A stretch of 64,000 nt of DNA, from positions 20,663-84,662 of the forward strand of contig JAMCTH010000005.1 of assembly GCA_023379025.1 (NCBI GenBank). The letters run 5' to 3'. Shown here piece by piece: positions 8,139-26,833 of this stretch (position 1 is its first letter; every line of letters starts with the position of its first letter). A model generated the notes under the pieces. It did no database searches and was not told the origin of the DNA. It saw only the letters and a list, made by a program, of their open reading frames with translations. The DNA is from Patescibacteria group bacterium (GTDB lineage Bacteria > Patescibacteriota > Microgenomatia > UBA10105 > UBA927). The translations under genes and the position numbers were made by a program.

Positions 8139-9986
8139 CTATATTCGGGAAGGTGTGAGCCAGGCAGCAAGATCATTATACTCCATGGAGTTTAAAACAT
8201 CATGAGTGCCGGCCCATCCGCGGCGCGCAACGGATACGCCGTAGCGCATGACATCCATGGCAGTTGCCTCATGGGCATCCGAATCGATAATAAATTTGAG
8301 TCCCTGCCGGCGGGCATCGAAGACGATCGTGTCCGGCAGATCGAGCCTGGCGGGGTGTGCGTTTATCTCAAGCGCAATCCCGCGTGCTTTGCAGACCCGG
8401 AACATTTCCTTCCAGTCAAGGGCGATCCCTTCGCGGTCCGGAAGGAGCCGGCCCGTGGGATGACCGAATATCCGGACTTTCGGATGCGCTGTGAGACCGC
8501 GGACCACCCGTTTGGTCATGGCTCCCTCCGGCTGGGTAAAGCTCGAATGGATGGAGGCGATGACGCCGTCCACATAGGTAAACGCGCTCTCCGGAAGGGC
8601 AAGGGTGCCGTCCGTCAGGATATCCACCTCACAGAGAATAAAGATGCCGACGGCTTTGGTGTGCTTTCGTTGCCAGGCTGCGTGTGCTTTTTCGTAAAAC
8701 GCCTTCCTCCGTTTCATGATGGCCGTTATGTCCTCCGGCGTATGGTTGGTGACACTCGGATTGTGGTCGGAAAGCCCGATATACCGGTAGCCCTGCTCGA
8801 CCGCCCGGTCGAGAAGTACGGCAAGACTGTCTCGGCCGAGGTCATGGGAGGGCTCGAGGTCATAATCACTATGGATGTGGAGGTCGCCTTTTATATCGCT
8901 AAGTCCGACTAAATCAGGAAGTCCGTCGGGCTTCCCCTGAGCCTGGCGGATGGCAGCCTCAAGCTCCCCCCGGTCCTCCCGCAATTCCGGGGGGATCCAC
9001 GGCAGTCCGAGCGCGCGGTAAAAAGCTTCTTCCGTCGCGTACGCCGTCGTTTTCCCTGTTTTGACCTGTTTTATCCCGTACTCGCTGAGGGACAGTCCCT
9101 TGCCGAGAGCCCAGGTACGGAGGGCAATATTATGATTTTTCGAACCGGTGAAATACTGGAGCATGGCACCGTATGCCCTGGGATCCTGGACCCGGAGATC
9201 CGCCTGCCTGCCGTTATGGAGAAGAAGTGAAGCTCCGGTCGGCCCCTTTTCTATCATTTTCTGGTGCGGGTACGAAAGAAACCGGGATATGACGTCGGCC
9301 GGTCTGCCGGTTGCCACGGCGATGTCGATATCCCCGATTGTGGCAACCTGCCGCCGGAGGCTCCCCAGAACCGTAATCTCACGGACCGGAGCTCCCTTCT
9401 GGAGAAATGCGATGATATCCCGGGCGATAGCGTCCGCCTGCGGCAGTCCCATCCGATTTTCTTTGATCTGACCCTTCCGGTATATGGCAATCGCCGAAAG
9501 GATGTCCTGTTCGGATTTTTCTCCAAACCCTTCAAGCGGAGCAATAGCGTGTGCTTTTGCAGCAGTCTCGAGATCACTGACCGCCCGTTTTTCCGTCCGC
9601 ATGTCCAGCGCTTTGACGAGTTTGTATGCCTTTTTCGGTCCGAGGCCGGGCACGAGGAGAAGCGGAAACACCGCTTCCGGCACGCGTTTGAGTGTGGCTT
9701 CAATATGCCGCACGTGGCCCGTACGGAACAGCTCGTCCAGATGCGACCGGATCGCGGGACCGACGCCCGGTATCACACTGAGTTTATCGTCTTCCCAGAG
9801 GTCCTTCACTTCGCTCGTCAGGTGTTCGATGCTGTCGGCAGCCCGTTCGTATGCGATGGTTCTGAATCTGTTTTCACCGAGGATCTCGTAGGCCGCAGCC
9901 ATATTCCGGAGCATGCCCGCAATTGCGAGGTTCGTCATACCTATCGTCATCATACCAAACCGACGCAATCCGGGCAAAAAAGGCAA
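8139..9986 (-). CDS. polX: Family X DNA polymerase with C-terminal PHP phosphoesterase domain (PolX)
   Basis: Pol-beta-like N-terminus (YEILGENRFRTIAYERAA; GVGPAI helix-hairpin-helix; GSLRR...DIDIAV nucleotidyltransferase motif) plus a PHP domain (DLHIHSDYD...). The likely start is MTNLAIAG near 9938. Confidence 0.85.
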   Translation of the reverse strand: MPFLPGLRRFGMMTIGMTNLAIAGMLRNMAAAYEILGENRFRTIAYERAADSIEHLTSEVKDLWEDDKLSVIPGVGPAIRSHLDELFRTGHVRHIEATLKRVPEAVFPLLLVPGLGPKKAYKLVKALDMRTEKRAVSDLETAAKAHAIAPLEGFGEKSEQDILSAIAIYRKGQIKENRMGLPQADAIARDIIAFLQKGAPVREITVLGSLRRQVATIGDIDIAVATGRPADVISRFLSYPHQKMIEKGPTGASLLLHNGRQADLRVQDPRAYGAMLQYFTGSKNHNIALRTWALGKGLSLSEYGIKQVKTGKTTAYATEEAFYRALGLPWIPPELREDRGELEAAIRQAQGKPDGLPDLVGLSDIKGDLHIHSDYDLEPSHDLGRDSLAVLLDRAVEQGYRYIGLSDHNPSVTNHTPEDITAIMKRRKAFYEKAHAAWQRKHTKAVGIFILCEVDILTDGTLALPESAFTYVDGVIASIHSSFTQPEGAMTKRVVRGLTAHPKVRIFGHPTGRLLPDREGIALDWKEMFRVCKARGIALEINAHPARLDLPDTIVFDARRQGLKFIIDSDAHEATAMDVMRYGVSVARRGWAGTHDVLNSMEYNDLAAWLTPSRI

Positions 9987-10222: not shown

Positions 10223-10807
10223 ATGGTCAAAGAATTTTTGAAACGTTTTGAATCCACGGAGTCGCTCATCTCTTTGGCATTGGGACTTGCTGTGGTTGTG
10301 GTTGTTGCCGTTCTCGGTGTCAAATATTTCGAAAACCGGCACCCCGGCAATACCGCCGGCGTCACCGGAGGAGCCTCTACCTCGGCAGCCAGCGAGGTAC
10401 CGCCGAAAGAACCGACGAAGTATACCGTCCGCGCGGGAGATACGCTCTGGAGTATCGCGGATACGTATTACACATCCGGGTACAACTGGGTGGATATCGC
10501 CAAAGCCAATACCTTGGCCGATGCCAACCACATCGAAACCGGCGAATCACTCATTATCCCGGTCGCAACACCGATAATGCCGGAAAGCGCGGTCCAGACC
10601 GGTACGGCAGGACAGCAGATTGCCGCAAGTCACTTTGAGGTAAACACCAAAGAAACGACCTATACGGTATCGCGCGGAGACAGTCTGTGGGATATTGCGG
10701 CCAGTCATTACGGCACAGGGTACCGGTGGACGGATATCGCCAAAGCGAATACCCTCGCAAATCCGGACCTGATTTTTGCCGGCAATGTCCTGACGTTGCC
10801 GCAATAA
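10223..10807 (+). CDS. Membrane-anchored protein with two LysM peptidoglycan-binding domains
   Basis: Single N-terminal TM helix followed by two YTVRAGDTLWSIA.../YTVSRGDSLWDIA... LysM repeats. The ORF-track 5' extension from 9923 overlaps tRNA-Asp and is rejected. Confidence 0.8.
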   Translation: MVKEFLKRFESTESLISLALGLAVVVVVAVLGVKYFENRHPGNTAGVTGGASTSAASEVPPKEPTKYTVRAGDTLWSIADTYYTSGYNWVDIAKANTLADANHIETGESLIIPVATPIMPESAVQTGTAGQQIAASHFEVNTKETTYTVSRGDSLWDIAASHYGTGYRWTDIAKANTLANPDLIFAGNVLTLPQ

Positions 10808-10832
10808 AGGAAACAACGTACAATGAGTAGGA

Positions 10833-10880
10833 AAGCCTGAAGCTTCAGGCACTAAAAATTTGGCAGAGTTGCCAAATTTT
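10833..10880 (+). terminator. Two tandem hairpins downstream of the LysM gene, candidate intrinsic terminator
   Basis: GCCTGAAGCTTCAGGC is a perfect 16-bp palindrome; AAAAATTTGGCAgagTTGCCAAATTTTT is a 12-bp stem flanked by A/T runs. Confidence 0.4.
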
Positions 10881-10885
10881 TTAGG

Positions 10886-10959
10886 TGCGGGATTAGTACA
10901 CCGGTAGTATGCCACCTTCCCAAGGTGGAGAAGCGAGTTCGATTCTCGTATCCCGCTCC
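10886..10959 (+). tRNA. tRNA-Gly (anticodon CCC), CCA encoded
   Basis: Acceptor GCGGGAT/ATCCCGC, anticodon stem-loop CCACC-TTCCCAA-GGTGG and T-loop GTTCGATTC. Confidence 0.8.
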
Positions 10960-11146
10960 AGACGGGACACCTTGCCCCGAAAAGGTCTTAATGTATTGAT
11001 ATAACGGGCTAATCATGAAATTTACAACAATATAAACAAAATTGATTTACCTTCAAATAGGGTTTCGGAGAGACGGAAATCGAACTCAAAATGTTTAAAA
11101 TCAACTTGGCCTTGACAATTCTCATATTTTCTGATATTCTGAAAAT

Positions 11147-11404
11147 ATGAAAGCAGTAAGCATTATTCGAGATAGGGGCCAATTGACCATTCCTGATTCT
11201 ATTCGTCAACTCGTTAGTTGGGTGGCTCCCTTATCTGCGGTAACAATTTCAGTTAGAAAAGCAGACGAAATTGTCATAACGCCTCACCAAAATTATGTTA
11301 ACTGGGAAGGGATTTGGGAAGGCATTAAAAAATCCAGAGCTATAAAAGGCAAAGGCAGCATCAACGCAGCAAAGTTTTTAGAATTTGATCGTAACTCACA
11401 CTAA
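11147..11404 (+). CDS. vapB: AbrB/MazE/SpoVT-type antitoxin (VapB-like)
   Basis: 85 aa with an N-terminal AbrB-fold swapped-hairpin pattern (VSIIRDRGQLTIPDSIRQ); its stop overlaps the next ATG (TAATG) in an AT-rich islet. Confidence 0.6.
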   Translation: MKAVSIIRDRGQLTIPDSIRQLVSWVAPLSAVTISVRKADEIVITPHQNYVNWEGIWEGIKKSRAIKGKGSINAAKFLEFDRNSH

Positions 11405-11823
11405 TGAAAACGGTCGTCACGGATACGTCTGTATTTATTAAATGGCTTAACAAGGATAACGAACAAAGCCTTGAGAAGGCGGACAAAATTCTTCAGGAAG
11501 TAAAAAACGGCCAAACCCAAATTTTTGTTCCGGAACTGCTTAAATATGAATTAGGAAATGTGCTTCTTAAGGGTAAGCAACTGACACCAGATCAAGCTCT
11601 TATTTCTTTGGGGACAGCATATTCTTTACCTGTAACATTTATAGCTGATTCGGAGCAACAGGCAAAAGATACCTATACGCTGGCTTATAATTACGGAATA
11701 AGCTACTATGATGCCTCATTTATGTCAGTTGCAAAAAATTACAACGCGACGTTAGTTACTGATAATCTGAAACATCAAAGTAAAGCTCCAGAAATAAAGG
11801 TTGTTGCCCTTAAAGATTATTGA
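11404..11823 (+). CDS. vapC: PIN-domain ribonuclease toxin (VapC-like)
   Basis: 139 aa with the conserved acidic N-terminus (VVTDTSVFIKW) and an acidic C-terminal residue (LVTDN), typical of a VapC PIN domain. Confidence 0.7.
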   Translation: MKTVVTDTSVFIKWLNKDNEQSLEKADKILQEVKNGQTQIFVPELLKYELGNVLLKGKQLTPDQALISLGTAYSLPVTFIADSEQQAKDTYTLAYNYGISYYDASFMSVAKNYNATLVTDNLKHQSKAPEIKVVALKDY

Positions 11824-11952
11824 CGTTACGCCGTTTGATAAGTCTCCATCAACTTGTTAAAATGTATTAGTATCTCGTCGAGCAAGAGTTCAAAATAATT
11901 TGCGTATCCGGCTCAATTATAGCGAGTTCGACAGCGTCCTGAGCTTGCCGAA

Positions 11953-11972
11953 GGATTCCCCTATCCCGCTCA
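11953..11972 (+). repeat. Imperfect direct repeat of the tRNA-Gly 3' end (candidate attR)
   Basis: GGATTCCCCTATCCCGCTCA versus tRNA-Gly 3' CGATTCTCGTATCCCGCTCC (10939..10958): 15/20 identical, including the 10-nt run TATCCCGCTC; the two copies bracket the AT-rich vapBC islet. Confidence 0.45.
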
Positions 11973-12025
11973 TAACCGAATTAAATTCAAATAAAAAAAT
12001 CTGAAGTCTAATTTAAAGAACGTAT

Positions 12026-12379
12026 ATGGGCATCGTGGTTGAATACAATCCGGATTTAGCACTCCGGGATCATAGTGAATTCACAAGGGGTAGGCGCAAT
12101 CGCGAAGAGTGTGTGCCCAAACAACTCACGGCTGGCAGGGTGTATGCGTTTGCCAAGCTCGGTCAGCGGAATTATTGGCTTATGGGCGAAATACCACTCC
12201 TAGTAACCCACGGAGATCAAAAATTGGGTCTGCCGATTGCAAGTATTCAAATTCTAGAGGCAACACATCGTCTACGAGGTGGTTCAGTGTGGACCGTGGG
12301 GAAATACAAGGTAATTGAAGTGTATAAACCGGGTGACAAAACCATTCATTTTAATGGATTTGCCAAAACGCATTCGTAA
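12026..12379 (+). CDS. Hypothetical protein (117 aa)
   Basis: The ORF alone; no motif recognised. Confidence 0.3.
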   Translation: MGIVVEYNPDLALRDHSEFTRGRRNREECVPKQLTAGRVYAFAKLGQRNYWLMGEIPLLVTHGDQKLGLPIASIQILEATHRLRGGSVWTVGKYKVIEVYKPGDKTIHFNGFAKTHS

Positions 12380-12403
12380 CTCGATTTATGAGACAATATA
12401 CGT

Positions 12404-12913
12404 ATGAAGTTATACCGTTTCAGCCCTATCGGTTCGGAACCGGAGTTACTCCGCGCTATCCGGTACATCCACCGCGCCGGTCACACGCTCTGCCGGGAAA
12501 AAACCGGAAAGTTTCTGCCGGTGCGGGGCTTCATCGGTGTGTTTTGCCACTACGACCGGGAGTACGCATATCTCACGCGCCTTTGCGAAGCGATGACGAT
12601 CCGGGCCGGCAATTTCAACAACAAATATTTCCTTCTGAAAAACCCCATCACGATACGGAAAACACAGGGTATTCCGCAGGCTGTCTATACCCACCTCTAT
12701 ATCAGGAAACCCGACCCCTACCGCGCGCAGGTCGGCGACCTCGACTTTTTCATGGAGAAAAATCCCTATAGCGAGCTCAAACGCGACATAGAAAACCGGA
12801 AAGCCCCGGGTGGCGTACGGATGCTTCCGGATCACCCCGGTCATGAACTCATAGAGCTTTATCATCCCGATATTGACGCCTGCGCCTATATACAACTGCA
12901 TGAACATATCTGA
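12404..12913 (+). CDS. Hypothetical protein (169 aa)
   Basis: The plus frame has a GC-rich third codon position and an ATG tightly spaced after the previous gene; preferred over the antisense 12446..12907 ORF. No motif recognised. Confidence 0.4.
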   Translation: MKLYRFSPIGSEPELLRAIRYIHRAGHTLCREKTGKFLPVRGFIGVFCHYDREYAYLTRLCEAMTIRAGNFNNKYFLLKNPITIRKTQGIPQAVYTHLYIRKPDPYRAQVGDLDFFMEKNPYSELKRDIENRKAPGGVRMLPDHPGHELIELYHPDIDACAYIQLHEHI

Positions 12914-13793
12914 TCAGCGCATCGGAGAATTCTGTATTGTAATGGGTGTCCTTTTGTGGGGTATCTTTCCGGTCTTTACCCAGCTCTCCTACCGTTCGCT
13001 TTCCCCGCTTACATCACTGGCTGGAAGCTCACTCTGTGCCGCGACATTTTTCGGCATAGTCTTGACCGTCCGCCACCGCTGGCATGAACTCAAAAGCAAA
13101 GAAACGCTCCGGTACGCGCTCCTTTCCACAGTCTTTACCGGCATCATTTTTTATTCACTGTATTTCCTGAGCCTGAAATACTCAAGTGCGGGAAACATAA
13201 GCATTCTCGGGCTCTCAGAGGCATTTTTCAGTTTTATGCTCTTCCAGGTGTGGAAAAAAGAATTCATTCCGAAAGAGCATATCTTTGGAGCGATACTCAT
13301 ACTCCTCGGAGCAATCGTGGTGCTTCTTCCTTCCGTAGGTGTATTCCGGCTCGGGGACATCCTCATCCTCATCGCAGCAGCCATCGTCCCGTTTGGAAAT
13401 TACTACCTGCAAAAAGCCAGAAAACACGCCAACGCGGAATCCGTCCTGTTTATCCGGACCCTGGTCGGCGGAACTGCCATCCTGTTCCTGTCCTTCCTGT
13501 TCCATACCGCATCCCCGCTTACGGATATCATGCACTCGCTTTCGTTTCTTCTCGTGAACGGTCTTGTGGTTTTGGGAATTTCCAATATGCTCTGGGTGGA
13601 AGGAATTCACAGGATCCCCGTCACAAAAGCGAACGGTTTGAACGCGCTCGGTCCGCTCGTGACGCTTCTTGCCGCATGGGTCGTCTTCAAAACGGCGCCG
13701 ACCGCCTGGCAGCTTATTGCATTCATCCCCATGTTCTTCGGGATGGGGTATATCGGTAAAAAAATTAGTCTAACCGGAGCAGAACGCAAGTGA
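12900..13793 (+). CDS. EamA/DMT-family transporter
   Basis: About 10 TM helices in two EamA-like halves; the start is taken at MNISDQ (ATG 12900), overlapping the previous stop by 14 nt. Confidence 0.7.
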   Translation: MNISDQRIGEFCIVMGVLLWGIFPVFTQLSYRSLSPLTSLAGSSLCAATFFGIVLTVRHRWHELKSKETLRYALLSTVFTGIIFYSLYFLSLKYSSAGNISILGLSEAFFSFMLFQVWKKEFIPKEHIFGAILILLGAIVVLLPSVGVFRLGDILILIAAAIVPFGNYYLQKARKHANAESVLFIRTLVGGTAILFLSFLFHTASPLTDIMHSLSFLLVNGLVVLGISNMLWVEGIHRIPVTKANGLNALGPLVTLLAAWVVFKTAPTAWQLIAFIPMFFGMGYIGKKISLTGAERK

Positions 13794-22440: not shown

Positions 22441-23945
22441 AAGCCGTTCCGTTTCATGAGCCAGCCATACACCGGCAGCGGCGCGATTTCCGTATAGTGA
22501 CTCATGATGTAAGCCCCGACTATGACGGGATAGTAATCGTCATAGTAGGACCTCTCTCTATGATACGGAATATACGCAACATAAGGAACCTTTGCCCGAT
22601 CAAAAGAGCGGACGAGCGCTTCCTGGACACCGGGGATTTTGGCGTTCCAGGGAAAAAGCGGCGTCCACGGGAGGATGCGCGGCGTCTCGTTGAGGAACAT
22701 ATAGATATCGTCAAAGTTCCCGAAGACAAACAATGGCTTACCACGGGTCTCCCGCGCAAGAAACGATCCGAGCTGCCGGTATTCCGGACCGAAGAATGTA
22801 CTGGCGGATGCCTGCCGCTCCCGGAACTTTACTGCGCTATGCGCAGCGCCGATGAGGACGAGTACCATAACGGGAAGAACAAGCCGCCGCTTTCCCGAGC
22901 GGAGGAAAAAACCCGTGGCCAGGGCGGCAAACGCAAGTGAAGGCACTATACGGATCGCGCCCCACCGGGGAAGTCCTGCCATGAAAAGCGACACGGCAAA
23001 AAGCACGGTCAGGACCGCCGAAGCATCCGGGCGCTTCCTCTTTTTCACGAACCACCATGCGAGGACGGAAAGCGGTATAAAAGCCGGCGCGATAAGAGCA
23101 ACATCACCGGGGCTCGGCGGCAGGATGTAATCATAGCCGGGTCGGGTGAGAAGGAGCGGAAACCGGAATACCCAGAAAAAGAACTGCCCGCCGGCGCCCT
23201 GCACGGCAAAATAGAGCCACGTCGCAACAACGCCCATGACCGGCAGCGAGAGAAAAAGAGCCGCGCTTCCCAGTGCGCGGGGCAGATTTCGACGCTCGTT
23301 CCCTACGAGAAACAGAACGGAAAACAGAAGCGGCCAGAACGCGGTCTGCTTTATGAGGACAGCCACGGCAAACGCCGCACTCCCTGCAAGGAGAGACCGT
23401 GTTGCAAGATCTCTTCTTGCAACGCAGAGCCGGGTATACCCGTACACACCAGAGAACCCCAGAAGGTAAAACGGCAGGAGGATGGTTTCATACCAGATGC
23501 CGTTCCCGTCGAATATCGGCTGCCAGAAGATGAAAAACAAAAGCACTATACAGGCCAGGAACGTGCCTTTCAGAAGTTTTCCCGCGATAACAAAGAGCAT
23601 CGCGTCGGACAAAAGGATAAAGCCGTATGCAACTACTTTGAGTGATGCCGGTGTAAACCCCAGAAACCGATAGAGGGCATAAAGGATATAGTACGCTCCG
23701 GGTACGTACGCGAGGACCACGTCTCGGTAGTAGAGCATGCCTTTCGTGAGAAACCAGGGGTAAAAAAGCATCTCCGGCCAGTCCGTGAAATGCGTATGCA
23801 GAAGATACGCAAGGTGGAGTATCAGAAGTCCGGCAAGCAGCGCATACGGTACTATCTTTTTCTCCATAGGATTCGGAAGAGGAGAAACACATAGGTCATC
23901 TCTTCCATGTAGGCAAATGCCAGAGCCAAAACCAGACCTCTCCAC
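22437..23945 (-). CDS. GT-C-superfamily membrane glycosyltransferase-like protein (ArnT/PMT-like topology)
   Basis: 502 aa with about 11 N-terminal TM helices plus a C-terminal soluble region; the likely start is MEKKIVPY (~23867). Confidence 0.45.
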   Translation of the reverse strand: MERSGFGSGICLHGRDDLCVSPLPNPMEKKIVPYALLAGLLILHLAYLLHTHFTDWPEMLFYPWFLTKGMLYYRDVVLAYVPGAYYILYALYRFLGFTPASLKVVAYGFILLSDAMLFVIAGKLLKGTFLACIVLLFFIFWQPIFDGNGIWYETILLPFYLLGFSGVYGYTRLCVARRDLATRSLLAGSAAFAVAVLIKQTAFWPLLFSVLFLVGNERRNLPRALGSAALFLSLPVMGVVATWLYFAVQGAGGQFFFWVFRFPLLLTRPGYDYILPPSPGDVALIAPAFIPLSVLAWWFVKKRKRPDASAVLTVLFAVSLFMAGLPRWGAIRIVPSLAFAALATGFFLRSGKRRLVLPVMVLVLIGAAHSAVKFRERQASASTFFGPEYRQLGSFLARETRGKPLFVFGNFDDIYMFLNETPRILPWTPLFPWNAKIPGVQEALVRSFDRAKVPYVAYIPYHRERSYYDDYYPVIVGAYIMSHYTEIAPLPVYGWLMKRNGL

Positions 23946-24610
23946 CCGTCCCGATAACCTTTATCTTTTATAAACCGGGCATAGAACATGTGGGGAGAAT
24001 AAAGAAAAAACTTCTTGAGAGATAACCTTTCTTTTGAAATAACCATTTCACTAGCTCTTAATTTAGCGTAATAAGTAAACTTTGTGAAAACTTGTAATAG
24101 GGTTCTATACGAATAATGGAATATAACACTTTTTAGAGTGCCCAGATTTCCTTCAGCATTTATTTCTTCGTGCACTGCGGATTTTGTTGATCTGCCTCTA
24201 TCTCTTCTAAACAATCTAATCAAGGAATAACTCTCTCCGCCCCAATTTATCTTCTGTCCAAAAGCATATTTTAGATGAGGAATCCAGTATGCAACAATTC
24301 TATTTCTAACTCGATTGTTACAAACTTGTGTTAGTTCCTCTCTAAGATGAGGCGATATTCGCTCATCACTATCTAGTATCAAAATCCACTTCCCTTTTGC
24401 TTTTTCGATAAGCCACTGCTTCCTTTCACCCAAAGTTATTTTCCCCGAATGAAGTACAGTGCCGCCATATCGTGTTACGAGACTAACTGTTTCATCGGTA
24501 CTCCCGTCATCGTCTACTAACAACTCATCCCACAGACCGGTGATGCTTTTAAGTGCATCCTCAAGGACATCTCCGGCATTTTTGGTAACCATCAGGATCG
24601 AAAGTTTCAC
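23852..24610 (-). CDS. Family 2 glycosyltransferase
   Basis: SILMVTKNAGDVLEDAL...VDDDGSTDET...DSDE. The gene is a compositional mosaic: the central part (~23990-24400) is markedly AT-rich compared with both ends. Confidence 0.75.
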   Translation of the reverse strand: MKLSILMVTKNAGDVLEDALKSITGLWDELLVDDDGSTDETVSLVTRYGGTVLHSGKITLGERKQWLIEKAKGKWILILDSDERISPHLREELTQVCNNRVRNRIVAYWIPHLKYAFGQKINWGGESYSLIRLFRRDRGRSTKSAVHEEINAEGNLGTLKSVIFHYSYRTLLQVFTKFTYYAKLRASEMVISKERLSLKKFFLYSPHMFYARFIKDKGYRDGWRGLVLALAFAYMEEMTYVFLLFRILWRKR

Positions 24611-24820
24611 AGATTTGTGAGATATCTCATCGACAAAGAATTTCTCTTATGCTTTTATACATGTAATGACCATCCCTGCCCATAGGATTTTTCACAGTGT
24701 AGTCCAACCATACTGCAAACCGCAAGGTTTGTATTCTTCACATTTCCCCCTTTGTTCAACCTGTTATTTCAGTCGAAACATCGCCCGGACAAGTAAGAGA
24801 AACAAAAATCATACCCGTTC

Positions 24821-26833
24821 ATGAAAAGGTATTTAAGTATACTTATAATCCTTTTTGTTCTGTTGGGTTTTCCGCAGCCTGCCCGGGCAGCAGTAATTTT
24901 CTCTGATTCCTTTTCCGGCGGTTATAATTCCTCATGGTATATACCTGATGGTACGATTTCCCCTATCTCATCAACTCATGGTATTACAGCAGCCAATGTA
25001 ACTAACCCATGGAGCGCAATTGCCTTTCCTTTGACTAGTAACCAAACCTACGATATTAGCTTCGATCTTTGGATAAATTCAACAAATCTTAACAGCGCAT
25101 GGGGTGGCGGTATAAATGATAATAGTGGCCATTGGAAAGGTTTTGGAAACTGGGTGGGGACTGGTAACTTGGGGTATGACAATTACCTACAAATTCATGA
25201 CTCAGAACGCGCTGAAAGTATGGTTGTCTGGGACCATAGTCTAGGACTTCACCATCTCGAATTCGTTATTTCTCCAATTGGAGGTACAAATTTTATCGCG
25301 ATCGAGGATGGTAAGGAACTAACATCGCTAACCACTAACGCCAACTTTAATATTACGGCAACTACGGTCTCCTTTTTTGGTCATGGCGATTACGAAATGG
25401 CAAACTTTGTGCTCTCTACTTATGAAGAGCCGACTCCAACACCTACCCCGACCCCCACCCCGACCCCCGAACCCACGGCGACTCCCACCCCCGAACCGAC
25501 ACCGACGCCGACACCGGAACCGACCCCCACCCCCGTCCCTACGGCAACACCTACGCCGGAAGCAACTCCGACCCCCACCCCGACCCCGCCGCAGAAAATC
25601 GTTGTGATCCCCGGGCTCGGGGCGAGCTGGAATGCCGATGCAATACTCTCCTGCACATTTTCTCCCGATGAAAGCTGGACCATGAATCCGCTCGCTGAAA
25701 TCATATATACACCGCTTATGCAGAGGCTTTCCGATGCCGGCTATGACGTCATCCCGTTTTACTACGACTGGCGGAAATCCGTTCCCGAACACGCAGCCTC
25801 TCTCCAGAACCTGATCCGGAGCCGCTTATCAGCCAATGAGCTCATCGACATCGTCGGGCATAGCATGGGAGGCCTGGTCGGCCGGGCATATCTGGAAGCA
25901 TATCCCCAAACGCACGGCATCGGTAAGCTCCTGACCGTCGGAACGCCGCACCGCGGCACTGCCCTCGCCTACCCTGCCTGGTCCGGCGGCGAGGTGTGGG
26001 GAGACCTGTTATGGAAATTTTCCGCAACCGCGATACTCAAGCACTGCGGTGGGTTCGTGTCTGATCGGAGGGAGACGCTCCAAACTATCATGCCCGCTGC
26101 GGCGAACCTTCTTCCGACCACGGACTATCTCCGTGACCGTAAAACCAAAACCATGCTGCCGCTCGGGACTATGTCCGCACAAAACACCTGGCTTCCGACT
26201 GCGGGTTTTTCCCCTCCGTTTAACGGCGCTTCCGTCGGCACCATGGCCGGCACCGGCTTCTCCACACTCCGGAATATCGACGTCCAGAAACCGACGAAGC
26301 GCGATGTGCGGCTCGGCAACTGGCTCGACGGCAAACCCGCAGGCAAAGAATACGATACCGCCGGCGACGGCACCATTCTGGCAACAAGCGCCTTAGTGGA
26401 AGGTACGACCCAGATCACGATACCGCAAACGCATTCCGGCCTTATCACGTCTGCGGAAGGTAAAGAGGCAATTGTCGGATTTTTCTCGGGTCTCGCACCC
26501 GAGACACTCAGAAAACCGCTCCTGGGAGAACCTTCCTCACTGCCGCCGGAAACCGCGCTCGTCGTCATCGCCCATCCATCCATGTTCTGGCTTTTTGATG
26601 CAAACGGCGCCGCAATCCGCGACCAGGATGGTATGGCTGCTGTGGTAAACCCGAAAAACGGAACATACCGGCTCCTCATATTTCCGAAGGGAGCCAAGAC
26701 GACCCTTATCGTCGGACAGTTCCTTGCAAACGACCGGATACTCTGGAAGGAATACACCCTCAAGAACCAGCTTCCCAAATACCGCGTCATCCGCTTCAAC
26801 GACAAAACGCCCAAAGAGAACGCCGTAGAATAA
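24821..26833 (+). CDS. Secreted class-2 lipase/esterase (alpha/beta hydrolase) with N-terminal unknown domain and Thr/Pro linker
   Basis: Signal peptide [23 protein letters not shown]; an AT-rich N-terminal domain of about 190 aa; a 55-aa (T/E)P linker; and a C-terminal hydrolase with [15 protein letters not shown] (the AHSMGG lipase_2 nucleophile elbow). Confidence 0.7.
25428..25590 (+). repeat. Coding low-complexity repeat (Pro-Thr-Pro-Glu codon repeats) inside the lipase gene
   Basis: Iterated ACNCCNACNCCG-like units encode [55 protein letters not shown]; it is not a CRISPR array because the units are irregular, without unique spacers, and are translated in frame. Confidence 0.8.

What the first reader, a model, noticed from the sequence alone, without database searches (positions are those of the whole stretch)
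10886..11972. tRNA-Gly-adjacent 1-kb AT-rich islet carrying vapBC, bracketed by a repeat of the tRNA 3' end
Immediately 3' of tRNA-Gly(CCC) the composition drops sharply (about 10960-11900), and the only genes there are an AbrB-type antitoxin and a PIN toxin with a TAATG overlap. At 11953..11972 the sequence GGATTCCCCTATCCCGCTCA repeats the last 20 nt of the tRNA in 15/20 positions, including the 10-nt run TATCCCGCTC. This is the classic attL/attR signature of an element integrated into a tRNA 3' end. No integrase remains, so it looks like a minimal remnant retained because of the addiction module.
Basis: seen in the sequence. Interest (0 to 1): 0.5.

Follow-up and report, generated by a model that had tools for sequence, protein, structure and literature searches.

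The report
Decayed vapBC islet in tRNA-Gly
A 1-kb piece of foreign, AT-rich DNA carrying a toxin-antitoxin gene pair sits in the 3' end of a glycine tRNA gene of a Gottesmanbacteria (CPR) genome. It is the stripped-down remnant of a site-specific mobile element, an ordinary kind of scar, except that the lost integrase was a large serine recombinase, a type not usually linked to tRNA genes.

Summary
tRNA-Gly(CCC) is at 10887-10960. The next ~1 kb has 38% GC against 53.7% for the window and is its most deviant stretch. It holds only vapB (11147-11404) and a PIN-domain vapC (11404-11823), overlapping as TAATG. The repeat at 11953-11972 matches the tRNA 3' end 16/20, not 15 or 17.

The insertion reading is supported. 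Gottesmanbacteria relatives share PolX-tRNA-Asp-LysM-tRNA-Gly-[gap]-tRNA-Thr synteny. In L025 and L033 the p117 homologue follows the tRNA after 9-18 nt, with no vapBC.

Three corrections:
- The vapBC unit ends at a second tRNA-like repeat, 11887-11914. The same cassette in an unrelated AT-rich contig (L041, ~85-89% nt identity) stops there.
- The integrase is not entirely gone. 10957-11013(-) encodes the last 19 codons of a large serine recombinase (LSR). Intact LSR genes abut tRNA-Gly(CCC) in L017, L018 and L032.

Best reading: a decayed, CIME-like remnant of an LSR-type integrative element, with vapBC under purifying selection (pN/pS ~0.1). The islet is ordinary; the tRNA-targeting LSR family and its cassette arrays are mildly novel.

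The parts
10887..10960 (+). tRNA-Gly(CCC), intact. It is the integration target. Its last bases (the CA of the encoded CCA, 10959-10960) are inferred to come from the element.
   Evidence: ARAGORN and Rfam tRNA at 59.4 bits. The first 72 nt are identical to the tRNA-Gly of L027, L007 and L011. Relatives with unoccupied sites end ...CCCGCTCA. GCTCCA occurs only in the window and in L013, L017, L032 and L009; the first four of these are occupied.
10951..10958 (+). Left (attL) copy of the 8-nt common core TCCCGCTC, within which the crossover is inferred to lie.
   Evidence: This is the only block shared by every junction in the window, L013, L041, L042, L049 and L054/55. The host-type 'A' or the element-type 'CA GAC' follows it.
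10961..11016 (-). Left arm of the element: a fossil of the 3' end of a large serine recombinase gene. The reverse strand reads ISPLYQYIKTFSGQGVPSG. It contains the conserved motif TAATGTATTGATATAACGGGCTAATC at 10989-11014.
   Evidence: blastn gives 84% identity over 70 nt to L042 1989-2058 (E 5e-15). The L042 106-aa ORF carrying the same end matches residues 410-509 of the 551-aa LSR of L053 (42% identity, E 1e-26; Pfam Resolvase+Recombinase+Zn_ribbon). tblastn of that LSR against the window finds its best hit at 11022-10909 (E 1.7e-4).
11062..11088 (-). Inverted tRNA-Gly-like fragment (T-arm plus part of the acceptor strand). Its origin is unexplained. It is also present in L041.
   Evidence: Inverted repeat I3 with the tRNA T-arm, 15/18. 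Conserved in the alignment with L041.
11112..11150 (+). vapBC promoter (TTGACA-17 nt-TATTCT with a TG extension) overlapped by a palindrome with 13-nt arms (11122-11134 and 11138-11150). The palindrome covers the vapB ATG and is the likely VapB operator. The transcript is probably leaderless.
   Evidence: Promoter scan, 10/12 match. Inverted repeat I9, 92% complementary. The block is conserved in L041, L042 and L044.
11147..11404 (+). vapB-like antitoxin gene (85 aa).
   Evidence: ORF. More than 500 homologues, always about 85 aa. Paired with the PIN gene in every locus seen. pN/pS is 0.12 against L041. Family hits are weak only: PrlF and AbrB.
11404..11823 (+). vapC toxin gene (139 aa, PIN domain). 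Its start overlaps the vapB stop (TAATG).
   Evidence: Pfam PIN, E 6.5e-12, 46.6 bits against a cut-off of 23.6. D7, E44 and D103 are invariant in 30 homologues. pN/pS is 0.10 against L041. An NCBI record names the identical protein a VapC family toxin.
11824..11914 (+). Right arm of the vapBC element. It ends in the tRNA-like block AGTTCAAAATAATTTGCGTATCCGGCTC (11887-11914). The attR core TCCGGCTC is at 11907-11914 and is followed by the host-type 'A'.
   Evidence: The block recurs with 0-2 mismatches at the cassette end in L041, L042, L049 and L051. It also recurs in L013, where the cargo is an APH-like kinase. Homology with L041 stops exactly at 11914.
11915..11972 (+). Older scar that predates the vapBC insertion. 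It has a T-arm 5' fragment AGCGAGTTCGA (11921-11931), a 22-nt spacer, then GATTCCCCTATCCCGCTC+A (11954-11972).
   Evidence: Local alignments. The block is 18/18 identical to the tRNA-Gly 3' end of L013. A homologous split structure follows tRNA-Gly directly in L016/L037. Its right side (GCTCA|TAACC) continues into sequence colinear with L025.
12026..12379 (+). p117, the first gene on the far side of the insert. It is flank, not cargo of the vapBC unit. It marks the pre-insertion neighbour of the tRNA.
   Evidence: Homologues of 63-69% aa identity start 9-18 nt after tRNA-Gly in L025 and L033.

Best explanation
The segment from about 10959 to 11914 is the decayed remnant of a small site-specific integrative element. 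The element inserted into the 3' end of tRNA-Gly(CCC) of a Candidatus Gottesmanbacteria genome.

Inferred mechanism:
1. A large serine recombinase (LSR) lay at the tRNA-proximal end of the element, convergent with the tRNA, with its ORF running into the attachment site.
2. It recombined the element's attP with the tRNA end inside the 8-nt core TCCCGCTC. The attP had the form ...AGTTCAAAATAATTTGCGTCTCCCGCTCCA|GACGGG....
3. The element supplied a new tRNA terminus (CCA plus downstream sequence). This left the tRNA intact.
4. The host's original downstream sequence was displaced to the far end, behind a tRNA-like copy carried by the element (11887-11914).
5. The insertion landed next to an older integration scar (11915-11972).
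6. Deletions later removed the recombinase gene except its last 19 codons. This immobilised the element, at least for self-mobility.
7. Both att-like ends and the vapBC operon survived.

vapBC is inferred to work as a type II toxin-antitoxin pair. VapC would be a PIN-domain RNase. VapB would neutralise it and repress the operon at the palindrome over the promoter and start codon. That activity would favour retention of the islet.

Shown: the insertion, its boundaries, foreign composition, the recombinase fossil, and purifying selection on vapBC.
Inferred: which enzyme catalysed the integration, the crossover position, and VapBC activity.
For: Taxon and synteny:
- PolX matches Gottesmanbacteria MAGs at 54-66% aa identity.
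- PolX-tRNA-Asp-LysM-tRNA-Gly(CCC) is conserved in about 25 loci. The gap to tRNA-Thr(CGT) ranges from 4 nt to 7.7 kb.

Empty site:
- L025 and L033 have the p117 homologue 9-18 nt after the tRNA.
- Deleting 10959-11971 in silico restores colinearity with them.

Foreign composition.

Independent copies of the cassette with the same ends:
- L041 shares ~85% nt identity over 937 nt. Its homology runs from CCCGCTCCA to 11914 and its flanks are unrelated.
- L042, L049 and L051 carry the same ends.
- L013 has the same right arm with different cargo.
- L042 1973-2056 and L054/55 carry right-arm/core/left-arm junctions, as expected for tandem arrays.

CCA signature: host-type TCA sits at unoccupied sites and at both distal repeats. 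Element-type TCCA-GAC sits at the live tRNA.

Recombinase:
- The fossil in the window.
- Full LSRs whose ORFs end at the tRNA-Gly(CCC) 3' end in L017, L018 and L032.
- An LSR next to tRNA-Phe in viral contig L053.
- The fragment family maps to the C-terminus of 477-543-aa proteins; five that were tested are LSRs.
- 11 of 24 such proteins carry xRT[RPG] in their last 32 aa, the translation expected from the antisense strand of a tRNA T-arm.

vapBC:
- PIN hit and conserved acidic residues.
- pN/pS of 0.10-0.12.
- Promoter and palindrome.
- The nearest VapC relatives (73-78% aa) are in Daviesbacteria, Blackburnbacteria and Levybacteria. That is closer than housekeeping PolX is to any same-lineage genome.
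Against: - The window's recombinase trace is only 19 codons. The link to LSRs runs through a chain of homology (window to L042 to L053).
- No intact LSR lies in the 64-kb window. The rest of the genome was not available.
- LSRs need no long identity between att sites. The 8-13-nt direct repeat with a tRNA-like arm is what tyrosine integrases typically leave.
- The attP-like junctions show no significant dyad symmetry.
- The attR copy carries host-type A at the position where the element consensus has C (GCGT-A-TCC). This does not fit one simple crossover point unless the incoming copy already had A.
- The window and L041 share the same truncated architecture in different contexts. That is easier to explain if the already integrase-less unit moved, or was carried within an array.
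- No excision product, circular form or polymorphic empty site was seen for this organism itself.
- VapB's fold could not be assigned.
Confidence: 0.7

Rival explanations
1. The integrase-less cassette is itself the unit that moves. It consists of the left-arm fossil, vapBC and the right arm. The unit was already truncated when it entered this genome. A helper LSR from a co-resident element excised and re-inserted it in trans, or it was carried in cis as part of a tandem array, as CIMEs are. This differs from the best explanation only in the order of events: decay before arrival rather than after.
For: - The window and L041 share the same internal architecture, including the 55-nt fossil and the 11017-11110 spacer. 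Identity is ~85-89% nt and the flanks are unrelated.
- All 13 database relatives of the L042 fossil found by word search are truncated, at 58-155 aa.
- Right-arm/core/left-arm junctions in L042 and L054/55 show cassettes stacked in arrays.
- Cargo differs while the arms stay the same: APH-like kinase in L013, AbiEii in L054, vapBC here.
Against: - No helper LSR was found in the 64-kb window.
- Truncation end-points differ among copies: L042 keeps 106 codons, the window and L041 keep 19 plus a spacer, and L049 keeps 19 with no spacer. This looks like independent progressive decay.
- Short metagenomic contigs inflate the count of 'truncated' proteins.
- No circular cassette was observed.
Confidence: 0.3
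2. This is the classic tyrosine-integrase genomic-island remnant. A P4- or lambda-like integrase targeted the tRNA 3' end and has been completely deleted. The LSR fossil would belong to an unrelated neighbour.
For: - Direct repeats of the tRNA 3' end with a tRNA-like arm are the usual signature of tyrosine integrases.
- In a large survey, tRNA and tmRNA sites were used by 44.5% of tyrosine-integrase elements but only 4.9% of serine-integrase elements (PMC7192596).
- A vapBC homologue lies next to a 288-aa tyrosine recombinase and a tRNA-Ile in L044.
Against: - No tyrosine recombinase gene or fragment was found in the window or in any tRNA-Gly gap examined.
- The LSR fossil is physically contiguous with the att core and is conserved with it in five loci.
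- Intact LSR ORFs end exactly at the tRNA-Gly(CCC) 3' end in three relatives.
- The L044 enzyme looks like a housekeeping Xer, and that locus lacks the conserved arms.
Confidence: 0.1
3. The cassette was imported by homologous recombination or gene conversion between tRNA-like flanks after transformation. No site-specific recombination took place in this genome.
For: - The tRNA-Gly/tRNA-Thr interval is flanked by highly conserved tRNA sequences that could act as recombination anchors.
- The interval is hypervariable in relatives.
Against: - The shared blocks at the junctions are only 8-13 nt, too short for efficient homologous exchange.
- The switch from TCA to TCCA-GAC exactly at the core fits a precise site-specific crossover.
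- The right flank of the cassette (11915 onward) has no homology with the flanks of other copies.
Confidence: 0.07
4. It is a native, vertically inherited vapBC pair whose flanking repeats are chance matches.
For: TA pairs are common in chromosomes. vapBC also lies between a tRNA-Gly and tRNA-Thr(CGT) in the distant locus L050.
Against: - vapBC is absent from this interval in all the Gottesmanbacteria loci that cover it.
- GC3 is 0.32-0.34 against 0.61-0.68 for neighbours.
- Three clustered matches of 12/13 or better to the tRNA end, all in direct orientation, are the only ones in 128 kb of sequence.
- The L050 cassette is itself bracketed by tRNA-end repeats.
Confidence: 0.02

Closest known systems
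CIMEs (cis-mobilizable elements), such as the decayed ICESt1/ICESt3 relatives of Streptococcus thermophilus. They are defined as elements that have lost their integration and transfer genes but retain attL and attR, and they are often found in tandem accretions (Guedon et al. 2017, PMC5704250).
   Same: - No functional integrase.
- Both att-type ends retained.
- Sits beside a further att scar. Relatives show tandem arrays with hybrid junctions.
   Different: - The parent appears to be an LSR element, probably phage-like, rather than a tyrosine-integrase ICE or IME.
- The target is a tRNA 3' end in a CPR bacterium.
- Only 1 kb long.
- No conjugation context.
- Mobilisation is untested.
tRNA-integrated genomic islands and integrative genetic elements of the Islander/TIGER type (Mageeney et al. 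2020, PMC7192596).
   Same: - The target tRNA gene is kept functional by a fragment supplied from attP.
- A displaced tRNA 3' fragment marks the far end.
- Foreign composition.
- The integrase gene, here its fossil, sits at the element terminus.
   Different: - Such islands almost always use tyrosine integrases. That paper states that use of a tRNA or tmRNA gene by a large serine integrase had not been reported and needs proof.
- Here the only recombinase trace is an LSR.
- The element has shrunk to a single operon.
Large serine recombinase (serine integrase) prophages and elements such as phiC31, Bxb1, A118 and TP901-1. This comparison rests on my own knowledge of the family.
   Same: - Relatives encode Resolvase+Recombinase+Zn-ribbon proteins of about 500-550 aa at the element edge next to the att site.
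   Different: - Characterised LSRs target protein-coding or intergenic sites and share only a 2-bp crossover identity.
- This family's ORF runs into the antisense strand of a tRNA 3' end.
- Its attP carries a tRNA-like arm.
VapBC type II toxin-antitoxin modules.
   Same: - A small upstream antitoxin gene overlaps a PIN-domain toxin gene.
- Conserved PIN acidic residues.
- A palindrome over the promoter.
- Frequent association with mobile DNA.
   Different: - VapB matches no Pfam family above threshold (AbrB and PrlF hits are sub-threshold).
- The transcript is probably leaderless.
- The cleavage target is unknown.
Chromosomal integron cassette arrays, which often hold TA cassettes. This comparison rests on my own knowledge.
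   Same: - Arrays of short, promoter-poor or single-operon units without their own integrase.
- Each unit is bounded by a repeated recombination site.
- TA and defence cargo.
   Different: - No IntI tyrosine recombinase.
- No attC hairpin sites and no attI.
- The repeated site is a tRNA-Gly 3' end.
- The associated enzyme is an LSR.

Membership tests
tRNA-integrated genetic element / genomic islet | Abuts the 3' end of an intact tRNA gene. | tested here: met
   tRNA-Gly(CCC) at 10887-10960 is intact. Foreign DNA starts at 10959/10961.
tRNA-integrated genetic element / genomic islet | A direct repeat of the tRNA 3' end at the distal boundary. | tested here: met
   Repeats at 11897-11914 (14/18) and 11954-11971 (16/18). 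These are the only such matches in the window.
tRNA-integrated genetic element / genomic islet | Absent from the orthologous site in relatives (empty site). | tested here: met
   In L025 and L033 the tRNA-Gly is followed directly by p117. In L004, L014 and L027 the Gly and Thr genes are 4-10 nt apart. These relatives are distant (PolX at most 66% aa identity), so the site is not a same-species allele.
tRNA-integrated genetic element / genomic islet | Atypical composition and closest relatives in other lineages. | tested here: met
   GC is 38% against 53.7%. It is the top tetranucleotide outlier. VapC is 73-78% identical to Daviesbacteria, Blackburnbacteria and Levybacteria proteins.
tRNA-integrated genetic element / genomic islet | Encodes its own integrase. 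| tested here: not met
   Only a 19-codon LSR C-terminal fossil remains. No recombinase ORF lies in 10961-11972 or elsewhere in the window.
CIME (cis-mobilizable element) | Has lost integration and transfer genes but retains attL and attR. | tested here: met
   Core plus left arm at 10951-11016 and right arm plus core at 11887-11914. Both are conserved with other copies.
CIME (cis-mobilizable element) | Can be mobilised by a related element that integrates in tandem. | not testable with these tools
   Tandem junctions exist in L042 and L054/55. No excision or transfer data are available.
Large serine recombinase integrative element | Encodes a Resolvase+Recombinase(+Zn ribbon) integrase next to the att site. 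| tested here: not met
   Not met in the window, which has only the fossil. Met in relatives at the same tRNA (L017, L018, L032) and in L053.
Large serine recombinase integrative element | Crossover at a 2-bp central dinucleotide between attP and attB half-sites with dyad symmetry. | tested here: inconclusive
   The crossover is confined to the 8-nt core TCCCGCTC by the TCA/TCCA signature. No significant dyad symmetry was found in the attP-like junctions.
VapBC type II toxin-antitoxin | PIN-domain toxin with the conserved acidic residues. | tested here: met
   Pfam PIN at 46.6 bits against a cut-off of 23.6. D7, E44 and D103 are invariant. D120 is present here and is the majority residue.
VapBC type II toxin-antitoxin | Small antitoxin gene immediately upstream, co-transcribed with or overlapping the toxin gene. 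| tested here: met
   The 85-aa ORF ends in TAATG shared with vapC. The pair is conserved in all loci examined.
VapBC type II toxin-antitoxin | The antitoxin has a recognised DNA-binding fold (AbrB/SpoVT, RHH, PHD or HTH). | tested here: inconclusive
   PrlF at E 0.014-0.028 and AbrB TIGR01439 at E 0.054, all below their cut-offs. No PDB hit with a profile. The AlphaFold2 monomer has pLDDT 63.6 and Foldseek finds nothing at E 0.001 or better.
VapBC type II toxin-antitoxin | Toxicity, neutralisation and autoregulation. | not testable with these tools
   Indirect support only: a palindrome over the promoter and ATG and purifying selection.
Integron gene cassette | attC site and a neighbouring IntI/attI platform. 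| tested here: not met
   No tyrosine recombinase was found in the window. The boundaries are tRNA-end repeats, not attC-type sites.

The most novel reading that the evidence does not exclude
Microgenomates (CPR) bacteria may harbour a clade of large serine recombinases that specialises in tRNA 3' ends. The evidence here covers Gly-CCC, Gly-TCC, Phe, and fossils at Val, Met and Thr.

The crossover site would lie inside the last codons of the recombinase's own ORF. Through repeated integration and decay, these elements would build integron-like arrays of integrase-less cassettes between tRNA-Gly and tRNA-Thr. Each cassette is bounded by att-type sites and carries toxin-antitoxin, abortive-infection or resistance-type cargo. 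A resident LSR could re-mobilise the cassettes in trans.

The window's vapBC islet would be one such cassette rather than a dead end.
Probability: 0.3. Interest if true: 0.6.

Novelty: new variant of a known kind. Interest (0 to 1): 0.42.

Why it matters
The islet itself is ordinary. It is a toxin-antitoxin pair stranded in a tRNA-linked scar, and a public record already names the toxin as VapC.

Its anatomy has wider interest for three reasons:
- It shows that in CPR/Microgenomates genomes the tRNA-Gly/tRNA-Thr interval is a recurrent landing pad.
- The enzyme associated with that pad is a large serine recombinase. A systematic survey described this class as not known to target tRNA genes (PMC7192596).
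- If the LSR-tRNA pairing is confirmed, it gives attP/attB pairs with a highly conserved, ubiquitous target. That would be useful for serine-integrase engineering.

It would also offer a tractable view of how tiny, reduced CPR genomes acquire and keep accessory and defence genes.

Tried and rejected
- Exact-protein look-ups for LysM and PolX found nothing on record, probably because the start-codon choice differed.
- The Logan contigs L001 and L002 are the same strain. They simply break inside the tRNA, which is not informative about an empty site.
- The metagenome scan with VapC returned only 5 loci.
- The viral-contig scan with the right-arm motif found none.
- A search for a distal tRNA-Phe repeat in L053 found nothing convincing within the 10.4 kb held.
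- Rfam found no RNA family other than the tRNA in 10800-12100.
- PHROGs and PADLOC gave nothing useful for vapB, p117 or p169. vapC had only a weak PADLOC hit at E 0.003.
- VapB fold assignment failed by three routes: a profile against PDB sequences, an AlphaFold2 model (pLDDT 63.6) and Foldseek. The domain is probably an obligate dimer.
- A dyad-symmetry test of the attP-like junctions was not significant.
- I considered that the conserved left-arm motif might be a small protein-coding gene or an RNA element. I rejected this because start codons and reading frames are not conserved among copies. The motif is explained instead as the C-terminal coding remnant of the LSR.
- I considered that the repeat at 11954-11971 is simply a decayed copy of the live tRNA end. 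That is less likely because it is 18/18 identical to the T-stem variant of other Gottesmanbacteria and belongs to a structure shared with L016/L037.
- The two 243-aa cargo proteins of L050 and L013 are unrelated.
Full report
**1. What is at the coordinates**

ARAGORN places tRNA-Gly(CCC) at 10887-10960 and Rfam confirms it at 59.4 bits. The gene ends ...TCGTATCCCGCTCCA, so CCA is encoded.

From 10961 the GC content falls to 33-40% and recovers after about 11950.
- 10961-11952 has 38.0% GC against 53.7% for the window. This is the lowest 1-kb value in 64 kb.
- It is also the top tetranucleotide outlier, at 0.618 against a median of 0.31.
- GC3 is 0.34 for vapB and 0.32 for vapC, against 0.61-0.68 for the surrounding genes.

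The only credible ORFs are an 85-aa gene (11147-11404) and a 139-aa gene (11404-11823), overlapping as TAATG. The second is a PIN-domain protein (Pfam E 6.5e-12, above the cut-off). An NCBI record names the identical protein a VapC family toxin from a 'Patescibacteria group bacterium'.

The reported repeat at 11953-11972 matches tRNA 10940-10959 at 16/20, with the exact 10-mer TATCCCGCTC.
- It is the only match of 16/20 or better on either strand of the window.
- A score this high arose in 0.2% of shuffles.

**2.

The three best local alignments of the tRNA against the downstream 1.4 kb all fall within 70 nt:
- 11903-11914, matching tRNA positions 61-72;
- 11921-11931, matching tRNA positions 46-56;
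- 11954-11971, matching tRNA positions 55-72.

The 13-mer CGTATCCCGCTCA with at most one mismatch occurs only at 10947, 11903 and 11960 in the whole window, always on the + strand.

**3. Who the host is, and the empty site**

The PolX gene upstream (8139-9986, minus strand) retrieves about 30 Candidatus Gottesmanbacteria/Microgenomates MAG loci at 54-66% aa identity. Nearly all share the order PolX, tRNA-Asp, LysM protein, tRNA-Gly(CCC).

tRNA-Thr(CGT) follows, but at very different distances:

| Locus | Gap from tRNA-Gly to tRNA-Thr |
|---|---|
| L014 | 4 nt |
| L027 | 8 nt |
| L004 | 10 nt |
| L029 | 127 nt |
| L005 | 7.7 kb (largest) |
| window | 2,854 nt |

The interval is therefore a hypervariable hotspot.
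- In the closest relative L025 (PolX 66%), and in L033, the homologue of the window's p117 gene (12026-12379) starts 9-18 nt after the tRNA. Identity is 63-69% aa, and there is no vapBC.
- Removing 10959-11971 in silico makes the window colinear with both loci.
- None of the Gottesmanbacteria loci has vapBC in this interval.

**4. The true boundaries of the vapBC unit**

VapC's nearest database relative outside the same strain is 94% identical. It lies on a 1.3-kb ENA contig, L041, with AT-rich flanks that are unrelated to the window and hold no tRNA.

The DNA alignment shows where the homology runs.
- It starts at CCCGCTCCAGA, the tRNA end in the window.
- It stops at ...AGTTCAAAATAATTTGCGT[A/C]TCC[G/C]GCTC, which is window position 11914.
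- Beyond that the two sequences are unrelated. blastn gives 85% over 937 nt.

The same right-arm block recurs at cassette ends elsewhere.
- It has 0-2 mismatches in L042, L049 and L051.
- In the Gottesmanbacteria genome L013 it closes an 880-nt AT-rich insert after tRNA-Gly. That insert carries an APH-like kinase instead of vapBC.

The left arm is the sequence right after CCA: GACGGGAC..., followed by the motif GAATATATTGATATAACGGGCTAATC. It recurs in L041, in L042 (twice) and in L049.

L042 1973-2056 and L054/55 contain right arm, core, left arm in one piece. This is the junction expected between two elements stacked in tandem, or equivalently an attP.

The vapBC unit therefore runs from the tRNA core (10951-10958) to 11914.

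**5.

11915-11972 reads GCGAGTTCGAC, then 22 nt, then GGATTCCCCTATCCCGCTCA.
- The last 18 nt are identical to the tRNA-Gly 3' end variant of L013, whose T-stem is GGGGG/CCCCT. They do not match the window's own GCGAG/CTCGT stem.
- The same split structure (GGGTTCGAC, 31 nt, GGATTCCCTTCATCCGCTC) lies 4 nt after tRNA-Gly in L016/L037.
- Its right side (GCTCA|TAACC) continues into sequence that aligns with L025.

I read it as the attR of an earlier event. The vapBC element later inserted into the live tRNA beside it. This is the accretion pattern described for CIMEs (PMC5704250).

**6. A signature of site-specific crossover**

In almost all relatives the tRNA-Gly gene ends ...CCCGC-TCA, with no encoded CCA. 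GCTCCA is found only in five places:
- the window;
- L013, which holds the cassette with the same right arm;
- L017 and L032, which have an LSR gene abutting the tRNA;
- L009.

Both distal repeats in the window carry the host-type form (GGCTCA|ATT and GCTCA|TAA). The live tRNA carries the element-type form (GCTCCA|GACGGG).

This is what is expected if attL inherits the element's right half and attR inherits the host's right half, with the crossover inside the shared 8-nt core TCCCGCTC. One detail does not fit a single clean crossover. The attR copy has host-type A where the element consensus has C, unless the incoming copy already had A there.

**7. The integrase fossil**

The reverse complement of the left arm encodes ...ISPLYQYIKTFSGQGVPSG.
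- In L042 the same sequence is the end of a 106-aa ORF. That ORF aligns with residues 410-509 of a 551-aa protein on IMG/VR contig L053 (42% identity, E 1e-26).
- The L053 protein has Resolvase, Recombinase and Zn_ribbon_recom domains, so it is a large serine recombinase. Its 3' end runs antisense into a tRNA-Phe gene.
- tblastn of that LSR against the window gives its best hit at 11022-10909 on the minus strand (E 1.7e-4). No other recombinase-like sequence, serine or Xer-type, was found in the 64 kb.
- Three relatives (L017, L018, L032) have intact or near-intact LSR genes of 499, 495 and more than 415 aa. These are convergent on tRNA-Gly(CCC), and the ORFs end at the tRNA 3' end.
- Fossils of the same motif lie about 30 nt after tRNA-Val in L042 and tRNA-Met in L044. 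An L017-type fossil abuts tRNA-Thr in L022.

An exhaustive profile-free search with a 155-aa fragment found 249 clusters.
- 24 of the top 150 are 477-543 aa long, with the match at their C-terminus.
- Five that were tested are LSRs.
- 11 of the 24 have xRT[RPG] within their last 32 residues. This is the translation of the antisense strand of the conserved tRNA T-arm (ATT/AAT CGA ACN). At most 0.016 such hits per 32 residues are expected from the rest of the sequences.

The peptide ...PSGAG itself is the antisense translation of the core TCCCGCTCCAGACGG. The crossover site therefore lies within the last codons of the LSR ORF.

**8. State of the cargo**

- vapB and vapC differ from the L041 copies at 13% and 11% of nucleotides, with pN/pS of 0.12 and 0.10.
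- D7, E44 and D103 of the PIN site are invariant among 30 homologues.
- A TTGACA-17 nt-TATTCT promoter (11112-11140) is overlapped by a palindrome with 13-nt arms that also covers the ATG. The -10 element ends 6 nt before the ATG, which suggests a leaderless transcript.
- VapB has more than 500 homologues of about 85 aa but no family assignment. There are only sub-threshold PrlF and AbrB hits. Structure prediction was uninformative.
- VapC's closest named relatives (73-78% aa) are in Daviesbacteria, Blackburnbacteria and Levybacteria. These low-GC Microgenomates lineages match the islet's composition.
- Other cassettes with these arms or fossils carry an APH-like kinase, AbiEii, a Fic/HTH protein or a MazE-like gene.
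- In the distant locus L050, tRNA-Gly(GCC) is followed by vapBC, a tRNA-end repeat, a LuxR-like gene, another repeat, and then tRNA-Thr(CGT).

**9. Interpretation**

The best-supported account is a site-specific integrative element of an LSR family that inserted into the tRNA-Gly(CCC) 3' end next to an older scar. It then lost its recombinase by deletion. It persists as an att-flanked, integrase-less vapBC islet, which is a CIME-like state.

The main uncertainty concerns the order of events.
- Decay may have happened in this genome. Truncation end-points differ among copies, which favours this.
- Alternatively, the already truncated cassette may have arrived as such. The window and L041 share the same truncated architecture in unrelated contexts, and close relatives of the fossil are all truncated, which favours this.

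A tyrosine-integrase origin is not excluded. It has no positive evidence here.

**10. Comparison and novelty**

tRNA-linked islands, their decay to CIMEs, and TA-mediated retention are all well known. The unusual aspect is the recombinase class. Mageeney et al. (PMC7192596) found tRNA or tmRNA targets for 44.5% of tyrosine-integrase elements but only 4.9% (14 of 297) of serine-integrase elements. They stated that such use had not been reported and needs proof. My literature searches found nothing on LSR-tRNA integration in CPR bacteria.

I therefore rate the islet as a new variant of a known kind, with modest interest.

Noticed in passing
window 23500-25250: This is the second most compositionally deviant patch of the window (GC about 0.39-0.41, tetranucleotide distance 0.596). 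It holds a 252-aa ORF (23852-24610, minus strand) and the start of a 670-aa ORF with a Pro/Thr-rich linker (24821-26833). It may be another acquired segment.
   Followed up: no
window 11062-11088 (-): An inverted tRNA-Gly-like fragment lies inside the islet (reverse complement GAGTTCGATTTCCGTCTCTCCG, a T-arm plus part of the acceptor strand). It is conserved in L041 as GGGTTCAATTCCCGTCTCC. It breaks off near or inside the att core. Its origin is unexplained.
   Followed up: partly
window 12026-12913 (p117, p169) and about 12900-13793 (EamA): p117 and p169 hit no Pfam, NCBIfam, PHROG or PADLOC family. Their homologues occupy the same tRNA-Gly/tRNA-Thr gap in L025 (both), L033 (p117) and L013 (p169). 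They are absent where the two tRNAs are adjacent. The EamA transporter is unique to the window. The whole 2.85-kb gap therefore looks like accreted cargo.
   Followed up: partly
L009 about 680-742 and L031 4948-5007: A 5'-truncated tRNA-Gly-like pseudogene (...GGTAGTATGCCCCGCCAA[A/C]GGCGGGGAGAAG...) with an altered anticodon stem-loop sits immediately after the real tRNA-Gly.
   Followed up: no
L006 5570-5598: A 29-nt copy of the window-type tRNA-Gly 3' end plus CCA lies about 45 nt downstream of a differently sequenced tRNA-Gly(CCC). This is another att-type scar in a relative.
   Followed up: no
L044 8830-10493 (Daviesbacteria JACPKL010000001.1): A vapBC homologue (78% aa for VapC) lies between a 288-aa Xer-like tyrosine recombinase and the 3' end of tRNA-Ile(TAT), without the conserved arms. 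The same TA cassette therefore occurs in a different tRNA-linked context.
   Followed up: partly
L042 10606-10631, L044 3512-3537, L022 2358-2547: LSR C-terminal fossils (ISPLYQSI / ISPIYQSI, or L017-type) lie about 30 nt after tRNA-Val(CAC) and tRNA-Met, and directly abut tRNA-Thr(CGT). In L042 the neighbour is a Fic+HTH_17 gene.
   Followed up: partly
L055 3131-5122 and L050 3612-5490: These are multi-cassette arrays bounded by tRNA-Gly 3'-end repeats. L055 runs tRNA-Gly(TCC), 148-aa gene, AbiEii, then an LSR fossil. L050 runs tRNA-Gly(GCC), vapBC, a LuxR-like 243-aa gene, then tRNA-Thr(CGT).
   Followed up: partly
window 11140-11147: The -10 element of the vapB promoter ends 6 nt before the ATG and there is no Shine-Dalgarno sequence. 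vapB is probably translated from a leaderless mRNA.
   Followed up: no
L001 and L002 (Logan contigs of the same strain): Both assemblies break inside the tRNA-Gly 3' end (window 10955 and 10931). This is as expected if that 30-mer is repeated or branches in the assembly graph. It is compatible with, but not proof of, alternative junctions in the population.
   Followed up: partly
window 10854-10881: A perfect 12-nt palindrome (AAAAATTTGGCA / TGCCAAATTTTT) lies between the LysM gene and tRNA-Gly. It is a likely terminator of the LysM gene, immediately upstream of the tRNA.
   Followed up: no
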